Assembly: GCA_965287045.1 (NCBI GenBank)
Contig: OZ336895.1
Span: 21,700,001 to 21,764,000, forward strand
Reading direction: 5' to 3'
Source: Carcharhinus amblyrhynchos
Lineage: Eukaryota
Length of the DNA: 64,000 nucleotides
In this document: piece by piece, positions 15,001 to 18,000 of the stretch
How positions within the stretch are numbered: the first letter of the stretch is position 1
Layout of the letters: each line of letters opens with the position of its first letter
Program-made: the position numbers

Positions 15001-18000
15001 TCCTCAGCAAAGCTGGATAGTCACTCATCAAATCTGAAGCCCAAGGACTGAGCCTTGTGATATCCTACTACTTGCAATTTAACAACTCAAATGTCCCATT
15101 TACTTCAACTCTTTACTGTCCATTAACCAATCCTTGTTGATATATCACCTCCAATCCATGAATATTAATTCTGTGTAGTTATTTTGTGTGATATCTTAAT
15201 ATTAAATCAAATCTGCATGCACTGATTCTCCTTTTATCCATCCTAGTAGCTGCTCCTTAAAAGAAACTAACAGATTTGTCATTTCCTGTTTCCTAAATTT
15301 ATGTTGTCTCTGCTTAATTTTTTTTATGTCTTTCTAAAATAGATTCTAGCTTCTTACCCACTAATTAATGTTAAACTAACTGGCCTATAATTAGTTGTGT
15401 TATTAGTTTTTTAAAAAATTGGCACAGTGGTTAGCCCTGTTGCCTCACAAAGCCATAGACCCAGGTTTGATTCCTAGCTTGGGTGACTGTGCAAATGTCA
15501 CACAGACATTCTCCCCATGTCTGCATGGGTTTCCTCCAGGTGCTCTGGTTTCCTCTCAGTCCAAAGACATGTGGGTTAGGTGGATTGGCCATGCTAAATT
15601 GATCCTTGGTGTCAGGGGGATCAACTAGCATAAATGCACGGGGTTACGGGGATAGATCCTGGGTGGGATTGTGGTCGGTGTAGACTCAACATGGGTTGAA
15701 TGGCCCCCTTCTGTACCATAGGATTCTATGATCTGCTTCTCTCTTCCTTTTGTTGAATTTTTTTAAGTATCAAAAAGGTACAAATAATAGGCTTTATTGA
15801 TTAAGAATAAAGTCCAATCAGAGTCCACACACAAGGGACAAACCAGATTCAAGCTGACAAGACAAGAATATGCATCCCACCTTGGGCTTGATCAAATAAG
15901 ATCCAGGCTGACGTGATTTTACACCCGCTGTTGGGCTTGATCTGAGCTTCATCTTAGCCAAAAGGCTGAGATGGCTTTGAAAACCGCATCAGGTCAAGCC
16001 TAGGTTTAACCTCGGCTACCCTGATCGCTTGTTGTACCCTAGCACAGGAAGACGATCGCAGGTATCAGAATATCCCAAGTGCAATGGACTCGCTGCATCC
16101 CCTGCCAGGTACCAGTTTTTGATAGGAGAGGGGATTAAGGGTTATGAGGAGAGGGCGGGAAAGTGGAACTGAGCAGCGACAGATCAGCCATGATCTTATT
16201 GAATGGTGGGGCAGGCTCGAAGGGCTGGATGGCCTGCTCTTGCTCCTATTTCTTATGTTCTTATACCTCCCAATCCTTTTGGAGCTATTCTAAAATCAAA
16301 CCCAATCCATTCACTATGTCTGCAGCTACAGATCCTTGGATACAAATCATTAGGTCCAGTGGATTTGTTGCCATTTAGTCCTCCTCACATCTTCAAATCA
16401 CTCATTCTGACCCTTCCCCCATTATTTCTGGAATGATTTTCAAAGCTCACCACAATGAAGTCAGATGCAAATTATTTGTTTAATGTCTCTAAACCTGCTC
16501 ATGTCTCTAACGGACCCATATTTACTTTCACCAATACCTCCCTCTTGGTACATACATACAGTTAATCTACTTTACAATGTCTCTTGGTAATATACTTTAA
16601 TATTTTATCACTTTCTTACTCCACTCTTGCTTAATTCTAAATTCATCCTAATTCTCAAGCTTCCTATTTTTGGCAACATAAGTCTTTCTCTTTGATTGGA
16701 TACCATATTTCACTCTTGGTAGCCCTATTTGGACTGCTATTTTTGTACGGTTTGTGATTTAAAGGAATGCATATTTGTCACAAATATAATTAACTGCTAG
16801 TCATTACTCATCTACCCTGTTTTTTTTTGATCCCATATTTTGTAACCATGGTTTTTAAGAACCTAGTTTTGGACTTGGTTGCATCACTTTCTAAATCGAT
16901 GGCCTGAATCTTCCGAGGAGTGGTAATCACCTTCAGATTGCCGCTCTGTTGCTGCCTTTTTCACCGTGCAGGAGCTCTGCAGGAAAGGACTTCCAATCCC
17001 AGCTTCAGAAATGTGGAGCGTACCTGAAATGAAACTGCTTTGCACTGGATTGTTGGTGGGAGACAAGCTATGGCCCTTTTTTTTATATGGCACTAGCTGT
17101 TGTATTCTGGTCAAGTGTTTGTTTAAATCTGCAAATACTAAGAAAGGTTAAGAGGGTTGGTTGGAAGCTTGGTAAGTGGGTTGGGGGGGGGGTTGGGGTG
17201 TGAGGTGGGTTGGGGAGGAATTGGAGGCTGTTTGTGGAGGGGTTAAGTGAGAGGCAAGCATTAAGATCAGGCTGGATTGGATAGGGAAGTAGTCAGGGTT
17301 GGGGGGGTGGGTGGGTGGTGTTAGGGGTTGAGTTAGGTTGGGTCAGTGATGGGTAGTTGAGTGGTAAGGTAATGGGTGTTTTGTTTTCAGGTCGGGTGGG
17401 AGTATCAGTAGAGTCTCCTGACGGGTGATGTCAGTTGCTTGGTTACCCAACAGTTAGTCTATCTAAAATTCCTTGGTAAGTAAGTCAGAACTGTCTAAAG
17501 TCTCTGCCTCTTAATGGAAAGGCCTGGGAAATGAGGAAGTTGCCCATCAGAAGTTTGACTGTGGGAATTGTCTGGGAAATCCGATGTGTTGGGTCTGCCT
17601 AGAAATCACATGGCACACCTTCTGGGGTACATCCAACCTCTGACTATCTGGCCATGGGAAGATCTGGACTTTCATAAAAGTCAATCCTATTATGGCCACA
17701 CTTCTTCTTTAAAGGACCCCTTACAAGAAATTGCCTTTCAGTGACCGATGCTAGATACAAAATATTCTGTTTTCCTAGTTGGCTTCTTGACATACTGATT
17801 TAGGGAACTATCTTAGAAGCATTCCACAAATTCATCCTCCTTATCTTATTTAGTCTCCCAATTGATATGAATGTTAGCAAACCCCATGATTAATGTATAA
17901 CTTTTATGTGCCTCTAATTTCCTGATATACACTGTCTTACAATATATGAAGTGGAGATGCTGGTGTTACTGTGTCTACAGTATGATATGCAGTTAGGGGA

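What the first reader, a model, noticed from the sequence alone, without database searches (positions are those of the whole stretch)
15768..16124. Mosaic U1-(U4)-U2 snRNA-derived element in a shark intron
Seen, reading the minus strand 5'->3': the U1 5' end TACCTGGCAGGGGA (16111-16098); U1 stem-loop II with the U1A-binding loop ATTGCAC (16093-16055), with SLI deleted; a GATCG...CGATC hairpin; a U4-like 5' stem-loop (16019-15998); U2 stem-loop I at 23/25 identity (15971-15947); two hairpin repeats; AATAAA (15798-15793). All pieces share one orientation within ~165 nt and no Sm site is visible. Known: snRNA-headed SINEs (SINEU) occur in crocodilians, and Keno/Utopia LINEs and Dada transposons target U2/U1 genes. 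I do not recall a U1+U4+U2 concatemer or a shark family like this. Inference: a new SINE-like family or LINE 3' UTR that keeps snRNA stem-loops, possibly recruiting snRNP proteins.
Basis: partly seen in the sequence, partly recalled or inferred. Interest (0 to 1): 0.88.

Follow-up and report, generated by a model that had tools for sequence, protein, structure and literature searches.

The report
Decayed U1–U2 chimeric retroposon copy
A short, dead piece of mobile DNA in a shark myosin intron carries the front ends of two splicing RNAs (U1 and U2), a build already known from crocodilian SINEU elements, so it is of modest interest.

Summary
The U1 and U2 likenesses are real. The U4 likeness is not supported.

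- **U2:** Rfam aligns U2 positions 1-31 at 15978-15947(-), 27 of 31 identical (17.6 bits).
- **U1:** Rfam aligns U1 positions 1-15 and about 49-91 at 16118-16060(-), with 33 positions (stem-loop I) missing (9.4 bits).
- **Thresholds:** both scores lie far below Rfam gathering scores, and the whole window gives 0 gathering hits. Together, in one orientation and both starting at position 1 of their RNA, they are not chance.
- **U4:** no U4 match at E<=10.
- **3' body:** it is not U2.
- **Insertion marks:** no target-site duplication above chance, only an A7 run after AATAAA, and no second copy in the 64 kb.
- **Setting:** antisense in an intron of a shark class-V myosin gene.

The mosaic is not unprecedented. 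Crocodilian SINEU-2 is U1+U2, SINEU-1 grew by repeated 5' additions of U1 and U2 pieces, and SINEU-3 starts with 32 bp of U2 (PMC4494074).

Best reading: a decayed chimeric retroposon made by a LINE reverse transcriptase. Whether it belongs to a shark family could not be tested, because no eukaryotic genome collection was on hand.

The parts
16102..16118 (-). U1 5'-end-like stretch (Rfam U1 model positions 1-15; 13 of 15 identical, 2-nt insertion)
   Evidence: alignment; letters
16060..16101 (-). U1 stem-loop II-like stretch (model 50-90). The loop has 11 consecutive identical positions and the stem is decayed. The 33 model positions before it (stem-loop I) are absent.
15979..16059 (-). Spacer of unknown origin. 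No Rfam family matches on this strand at E<=10.
15947..15978 (-). U2 5' end with stem-loop I (model 1-31; 27 of 31 identical). The hairpin is kept.
15935..15958 (-). 11-nt tandem duplication (2.2 copies) of the 3' edge of the U2 piece
15806..15946 (-). Body with no U2 signal of its own. It holds degenerate direct repeats spaced about 54-58 nt apart.
15793..15798 (-). AATAAA
15758..15764 (-). A7 run, 28 nt after AATAAA. It is the only tail-like feature.
15768..15776 (.). 3' arm of a 9-nt perfect inverted pair with 16116-16124 (14 of 16 with a 2-nt gap). Of marginal significance.
16116..16124 (.). 5' arm of the same inverted pair
15420..15732 (+). Neighbour: dispersed SINE-like repeat whose conserved end is at 15732. 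It sets the lower outer limit of the element.
16132..16298 (+). Neighbour: second dispersed repeat. It sets the upper outer limit of the element.

Best explanation
The stretch 15778-16118 on the minus strand (outer limits 15733-16131) is a decayed, non-coding retroposed sequence. It lies antisense in an intron of a shark class-V myosin gene.

Its 5' half joins the 5'-terminal pieces of two spliceosomal RNAs in one orientation. The first is U1 (positions 1-15 and about 49-91, stem-loop I missing). After a spacer of about 80 nt comes U2 (positions 1-31). About 170 nt of unrelated sequence follow, with degenerate internal repeats, an AATAAA and a short A run.

Most likely origin: a LINE reverse transcriptase copied a polyadenylated RNA. 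On reaching a 5' end it jumped onto U2 RNA and later onto U1 RNA, or it copied RNAs that were already ligated. This is the route proposed for crocodilian SINEU. I think the copy is more likely one member of a dispersed SINEU-like family than a single event, and it is now inert.

Shown: the snRNA likeness, the order and orientation of the pieces, their 5' completeness, the absence of any snRNA gene, and the intronic antisense setting.

Inferred: the template switch, family status and inertness.
For: - U2 model 1-31 at 15978-15947: 27 of 31 identical, hairpin kept.
- U1 model 1-15 plus stem-loop II at 16118-16060.
- Both pieces lie on the minus strand, 81 nt apart, and both start at model position 1 while being cut short at the 3' side. 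That pattern is expected when a reverse transcriptase runs to the 5' end of a template and then switches.
- My arithmetic from the tool E-values: a U2 hit this good anywhere in 64 kb for the U2 family alone has E of about 0.008. A U1 hit this good within 400 nt on the same strand has E of about 6e-4. The product is about 5e-6.
- By hand, 23 of 25 identities at a fixed target has a probability of about 2.5e-12 per site, or about 3e-7 per window.
- The 3' body adds only about 1 bit to the U2 score (18.5 against 17.6 bits) and has no U2 hit alone. The U2 piece is therefore a short 5' fragment joined to foreign sequence.
- AATAAA is followed 28 nt later by an A7 run. Three runs of T4-T5 lie inside or just past it. 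Kojima used such runs to argue against pol III transcription of SINEU.
- Published parallels (PMC4494074): SINEU-2 is U1+U2, SINEU-1 shows repeated 5' additions and partial duplications, SINEU-3 has a first U2 piece of 32 bp, and template switching is the proposed mechanism.
- Double template switches are documented (PMC2104539, abstract).
- Family status rests on inference only. Meeting such a copy in one 64-kb window is far more likely if there are many copies than if there is one.
Against: - Both snRNA matches are far below Rfam gathering scores (U2 17.6-18.5 against 46 bits; U1 9.4-9.6 against 69.5 bits). The whole-window gathering scan gave 0 hits.
- No target-site duplication: the best direct match between the flanks scores 6, and 1396 of 1500 random placements do as well.
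- There is no real poly(A) tail.
- No second copy in the window by blastn with word size 7 or by nhmmer --max.
- No LINE in the window shares its tail.
- The U1 stem-loop II stem is decayed.
- The spacer of about 80 nt has no identified source.
- Copy number in the genome, the one fact that separates a family from a single event, could not be measured.
Confidence: 0.5

Rival explanations
1. A single chimeric retrocopy, not a family. One retrotransposition event had two or more template switches (or prior RNA ligation). It fused a polyadenylated RNA's 3' end, U2, an unknown RNA and U1, and then decayed in place.
For: - Same anatomy as the best explanation.
- Only one copy in 64 kb.
- Bipartite and tripartite chimeras made by LINE reverse transcription are documented in mammals and a fungus (PMC2104539 abstract; PMC4494074 Discussion; PMC11838501 passages).
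Against: - No target-site duplication and no poly(A) tail, both expected of such events when young.
- Chimeras with U1 or U2 are reported as very rare, one and two copies with Alu fragments in human.
- By inference, a unique event is unlikely to fall in any one 64-kb window.
- The internal repeats and the stem-loop I deletion would all have to be changes after insertion or reverse-transcriptase skips.
Confidence: 0.3
2. A DNA-level remnant: either two independent snRNA pseudogene insertions side by side, or a decayed piece of a linked U1/U2 gene array.
For: U1 and U2 retropseudogenes are known (Van Arsdell et al. 1981, as cited in PMC4494074).
Against: - The pieces are short, both complete at the 5' end, in the same orientation and only 81 nt apart.
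- No full-length snRNA is present and no Rfam gathering hit was found.
- By inference, two independent hits this close are improbable.
Confidence: 0.07
3. A small DNA transposon (MITE-like) with terminal inverted repeats that captured snRNA fragments.
For: A 9-nt perfect inverted pair lies exactly at the finding's bounds. It extends to 14 of 16 with one gap.
Against: - 52 of 1500 random placements score as well.
- No flanking duplication was found.
- One arm overlaps the U1 5'-end-like stretch.
- AATAAA and 5'-complete RNA pieces point to an RNA route.
Confidence: 0.05
4. Chance resemblance in ordinary intronic sequence.
For: Neither match is significant against all 4227 families over 64 kb. 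By my rescaling, E is about 35 for U2.
Against: The joint occurrence, shared strand, shared 5' completeness, 23 of 25 identities and an 11-nt exact loop match make this very unlikely. The arithmetic is given under the best explanation.
Confidence: 0.03
5. An exapted functional RNA or regulatory element that uses snRNA stem-loops to bind snRNP proteins.
For: - The U1 loop letters and U2 stem-loop I are the best kept parts.
- The whole 344 nt folds somewhat better than shuffles (z -3.02; 1 of 100 shuffles as good).
Against: - The stem of U1 stem-loop II is lost.
- There is no Sm site.
- There is no Rfam family.
- No conservation data are available.
Confidence: 0.03

Closest known systems
[quoted passage not shown]
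   Same: - Short, non-coding element under 500 bp.
- The head is made of U1 and/or U2 5' pieces. U1 is placed 5' of U2, as in SINEU-2 and several SINEU-1 subfamilies.
- The first U2 piece is short (32 bp in SINEU-3; 31 here).
- Partial duplications occur inside the head.
- The 3' part is unrelated.
- Oligo-T runs inside argue against pol III transcription.
   Different: - The host is a shark; the paper found none outside crocodilians.
- No poly(A) tail is kept.
- No Mariner-N4 target and no Tx1 partner were seen.
- The U1 piece lacks stem-loop I.
- A spacer of about 80 nt of unknown origin lies between U1 and U2.
- Homology of the body to SINEU bodies could not be tested.
- Family status is unknown.
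LINE-made chimeric retrocopies, bipartite and tripartite (PMC2104539 abstract; PMC11838501 passages; Buzdin 2002 and Garcia-Perez 2007 as cited in PMC4494074)
   Same: Small-RNA pieces at the 5' side are fused in the same orientation to the 3' end of another transcript. The mechanism is template switching or RNA ligation.
   Different: Those events are single, usually flanked by duplications, and carry poly(A). Here neither mark is detectable, and two different snRNAs are involved.
Tx1 LINE families with U1 or U2 heads (Tx1-2_Crp, Tx1-11_Crp; PMC4494074)
   Same: An snRNA-derived 5' end on a retroposon.
   Different: Those encode proteins. Here there is no ORF with a family match next to the element.
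Keno and Utopia, LINEs that target U2 genes (PMC4640811, passages)
   Same: They produce junctions between U2 sequence and retroposon sequence.
   Different: Their 3' flank starts at U2 nucleotide 39. Here U2 ends at position 31, no U2 sequence follows the element, and there is no reverse transcriptase beside it.

Membership tests
SINEU (snRNA-headed SINEs) | 5' part derived from U1 or U2 snRNA | tested here: met
   U1 model positions 1-15 and 50-90, and U2 model positions 1-31. Both are below Rfam gathering scores but jointly not chance.
SINEU (snRNA-headed SINEs) | Short (<500 bp), non-coding | tested here: met
   At most 399 nt lie between the neighbouring repeats. No ORF of 60 aa or more lies inside.
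SINEU (snRNA-headed SINEs) | 3' poly(A) tail | tested here: inconclusive
   Only an A7 run 28 nt after AATAAA. A tail may have decayed.
SINEU (snRNA-headed SINEs) | Dispersed multi-copy family sharing one structure | not testable with these tools
   One copy in the window. No eukaryotic genome collection was on hand.
SINEU (snRNA-headed SINEs) | Sequence homology of the body to SINEU-1/2/3 | not testable with these tools
SINEU (snRNA-headed SINEs) | Shared target or partner with Tx1-Mar LINEs | tested here: inconclusive
   The neighbours are two other dispersed repeats. The only reverse-transcriptase remnant in the window shares nothing with the element.
LINE-made chimeric retrocopy | Small-RNA part complete at the 5' end, cut at the 3' end, same orientation as the 3' partner | tested here: met
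   Both pieces start at model position 1.
LINE-made chimeric retrocopy | Target-site duplication around the whole chimera | tested here: not met
   The best direct match scores 6, and 1396 of 1500 random placements do as well. Decay could have erased a duplication.
Genuine U1, U2 or U4 snRNA gene | Rfam gathering score reached | tested here: not met
   0 gathering hits in the window. U2 18.5 against 46 bits and U1 9.6 against 69.5 bits. No U4 match at E<=10.
Keno/Utopia insertion in a U2 gene | Junction at the shared U2 site (3' flank from nucleotide 39) and a LINE body | tested here: not met
   U2 ends at position 31. There is no U2 downstream and no reverse transcriptase adjacent. The site is from PMC4640811.
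   The inverted pair is marginal (52 of 1500) and there is no duplication. The flanks are other repeats.

The most novel reading that the evidence does not exclude
This is one copy of a dispersed shark family of snRNA-headed retroposons. The family arose independently of crocodilian SINEU through the same repeated 5' additions. Its best-kept parts (the U1 5' end, the U1 stem-loop II loop and U2 stem-loop I) are kept because they serve the element's RNA, for example in RNP assembly or nuclear handling. The plainer half of this reading is a shark family with no claim about function. I put that at about 0.5, with an interest of about 0.45.
Probability: 0.08. Interest if true: 0.7.

Novelty: new member of a known kind. 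Interest (0 to 1): 0.35.

Why it matters
If copies prove numerous in sharks, snRNA-headed retroposons would no longer be a crocodilian oddity. They would be a recurrent outcome of LINE reverse transcription, now seen in cartilaginous fishes too. The shared break of the U2 piece at about position 31-32 would then hint at a preferred switch point.

For annotation, the locus should not be called a U1, U2 or U4 gene or pseudogene array.

Lying antisense, the U1 5'-end copy also places a weak 5' splice-site-like motif on the host gene's sense strand (16106-16114). That likeness is recalled knowledge and was not tested.

Tried and rejected
- **U4 module:** the scan of 15975-16060 gave no U4 match at E<=10. 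Rejected.
- **3' body as the rest of U2:** the full-model alignment adds about 1 bit, and the body alone has no U2 hit. Rejected.
- **Second internal module as an older U2 5' piece:** no Rfam hit. It is only 75% like the first module over 16 nt, plus a 12-nt exact repeat. Left open, not claimed.
- **Target-site duplication:** none above chance.
- **Terminal inverted repeats:** marginal.
- **Second copy or partner LINE in the window:** none by blastn word 7 or nhmmer --max.
- **Body derived from the neighbouring repeat:** there is a 17-nt inverted match at 88%. A profile of four copies of that repeat does not hit the body at E<=1. Not supported.
- **The two neighbouring repeats as halves of one element split by the insertion:** other copies of the first do not continue into the second. 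Rejected.
- **tRNA-like heads:** ARAGORN found 0.
- **Tandem repeats in 15700-16200:** Tandem Repeats Finder found only the 11-nt duplication.
- **Literature on SINEU in sharks:**
  - 'SINEU' + 'shark' gave 1 paper, which was irrelevant.
  - 'SINEU' + 'crocodilian' + 'SINE' from 2016 gave 6 papers. I read passages of one of them; for the rest I saw only titles and the start of the abstract. Nothing I saw reports a shark family.
  - 'snRNA-derived' + 'SINEs' + 'retrotransposon' gave 7 papers.
  - A five-term shark search gave 34 papers, of which 15 were listed. Nothing relevant appeared beyond two reviews that place SINEU in crocodilians (passages).
- **Not seen:** Repbase, Dfam and subscription journals.

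Full report
**1. What is there.** Read on the minus strand, the finding's letters are at the stated places. The window holds no N. A gathering-score scan of all 64 kb against Rfam 15 found nothing, so no snRNA gene is present. E-value scans of short stretches gave the following.

| Stretch scanned | Result |
|---|---|
| 15600-16300 | U2 full model at 15978-15806(-), 18.5 bits, E=0.23; U1 model 50-90 at 16101-16060(-), 9.6 bits, E=8.1 |
| 15940-15985 | U2 model 1-38 at 15978-15940(-), 17.6 bits, E=0.025 |
| 16040-16130 | U1 model 1-113 at 16118-16040(-), 9.4 bits, E=1.2 |
| 15975-16060 | no U4; one unrelated family on the other strand |
| 15780-15946 | no U2; one unrelated family on the other strand |
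| 15868-15926 | nothing |

In the printed U2 alignment, 27 of the first 31 positions carry the same letter and there is one inserted base. The likeness stops after position 31.

In the U1 alignment, positions 1-15 match at 13 of 15 with a 2-nt insertion. The next 33 model positions (stem-loop I) are absent. The stem-loop II part has 11 consecutive identical loop positions.

**2. Is it more than chance?** Each match alone is weak when set against 4227 families and 64 kb. Rescaling one search gives E of about 35 for U2. For U2 alone over 64 kb, E is about 0.008. For U1 alone within 400 nt on the same strand, E is about 6e-4. The product is about 5e-6. These figures are my arithmetic on the tool values.

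By hand, 23 of 25 identities to a fixed target is about 2.5e-12 per site, or about 3e-7 per window. Both pieces also begin at position 1 of their RNA. I take the U1 and U2 origin as real and the U4 part as unsupported.

**3. Anatomy and limits.** The element is bounded by two dispersed repeats on the plus strand.
- One ends at 15732. It has eight further matching stretches in the window, and its conserved end is seen in five aligned copies.
- The other starts at 16132, with three more copies.

The element therefore lies within 15733-16131, with its core at 15778-16118. From 5' to 3' it reads:
- the U1 5' end;
- U1 stem-loop II;
- a spacer of about 80 nt with two predicted hairpins and no known relative;
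- U2 positions 1-31, with an 11-nt tandem duplication at its 3' edge;
- a body with degenerate direct repeats;
- AATAAA;
- an A7 run 28 nt later.

Only U2 stem-loop I folds better than shuffles (z -3.29). The U1 stem-loop II stretch does not (z +0.90). The whole 344 nt gives z -3.02.

No target-site duplication stands out: the best score is 6, and 1396 of 1500 random placements do as well. No second copy and no sequence sharing the tail exists in the window.

**4. Setting.** Plus-strand ORFs carry IQ motifs (within 11521-13930), a coiled-coil stretch (18777-19079) and a DIL domain (51172-51486). One exon-bearing stretch, 13649-13876, was searched on its own. It finds shark 'unconventional myosin-Vb-like' proteins best: 93% to Scyliorhinus torazame and 92% to Heterodontus francisci.

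I searched this single exon only. The window is elasmobranch, not human. The element lies antisense in the intron between the last IQ exon and the coiled-coil exon.

**5. How it most likely arose.** Two snRNA pieces that are both complete at the 5' end, cut at the 3' end, in one orientation, and placed 5' of a foreign sequence ending in AATAAA are what a LINE reverse transcriptase leaves. It runs to the end of one RNA and continues on another, or it copies RNAs that were ligated beforehand.

Template switching and RNA ligation are the two routes discussed for U6/LINE-1 chimeras (PMC11838501, passages). Double switches are documented (PMC2104539, abstract). The exact loss of stem-loop I fits a reverse transcriptase skipping a hairpin; that step is inference. 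The element has no coding capacity, and I see no sign that it does anything now.

**6. Comparison with what is known.** Kojima 2015 (PMC4494074; outline, Results and Discussion read) described SINEU in crocodilians:
- SINEU-2 is 5' U1 plus 3' U2.
- SINEU-1 subfamilies grew by at least two 5' additions of U1 and three of U2, with partial duplications.
- SINEU-3 begins with 32 bp of U2.
- All have poly(A) tails.
- Oligo-T runs inside argue against pol III transcription.
- Tx1-Mar LINEs are the likely partner.
- None was found outside crocodilians.

The shark element has the same build. It lacks a tail, a visible partner, and proof of being a family. Keno and Utopia LINEs cut U2 further 3', with the 3' flank starting at nucleotide 39 (PMC4640811, passages), so they do not explain the junction at position 31.

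My literature searches found no shark SINEU, and two reviews place SINEU in crocodilians only (passages). I could not see Repbase, Dfam, subscription journals or the SINEU paper's supplements.

**7. Verdict.** It is a SINEU-like chimeric retroposon copy, which is a known kind. Whether it stands for a shark family is open.

- Family member: about 0.5.
- Single chimeric event: about 0.3.
- Other readings: about 0.2 together.
- Interest: 0.35.

**8. Left unchecked.** I could not check genome-wide copy number, other shark genomes, repeat libraries or expression.

The window also holds a retroelement remnant with a reverse-transcriptase domain. It lies on the minus strand, with outer bounds of about 32158-33427. 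The RVT_1 match is split over two overlapping ORFs in different frames, so there is at least one frameshift. I only described it. Its pieces were scanned as they stand and were not joined.

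Noticed in passing
window 11521-13930, 18777-19079, 51172-51486 (+): Exons of a class-V myosin paralogue (IQ motifs, coiled coil, DIL domain). The best relatives are shark 'unconventional myosin-Vb-like' proteins at up to 93% identity.
   Followed up: partly
window about 32158-33427 (-): Retroelement remnant with a reverse-transcriptase (RVT_1) domain split over two overlapping ORFs in different frames, so at least one frameshift. 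The only PDB sequence match is a weak one to a group II intron protein, E=0.0065. It shares nothing with the finding's element.
   Followed up: partly
window 15420-15732 (+) and eight further stretches (e.g. 35544-35836, 50337-50658, 58003-58169): Dispersed SINE-like repeat, with copies 68-93% identical to this one. It ends 46 nt from the element's core. ARAGORN sees no tRNA-like head.
   Followed up: partly
window 16132-16298 (+); 25153-25321 (-); 30903-31068 (+); 62333-62479 (-): Second dispersed repeat. A profile of these copies also weakly hits the ends of copies of the first repeat, for example at 50338-50392 with E=5e-4. The two families may therefore share a core.
   Followed up: partly
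window 15895-15911 and 16184-16200: A 17-nt inverted match at 88% between the element's body and the neighbouring repeat. The repeat profile does not hit the body.
   Followed up: partly
window 16106-16114 (+): On the host gene's sense strand, the complement of the U1 5'-end-like stretch reads CAG|GTACCA, a weak 5' splice-site-like motif. The likeness is judged from recalled knowledge and was not tested.
   Followed up: no
window 11138-11227: A 43-nt tandem repeat, 2.1 copies, 87% matches.
   Followed up: no
window 2001-4000 and 38001-40000: Unusually high GC skew, 0.36 and 0.29.
   Followed up: no
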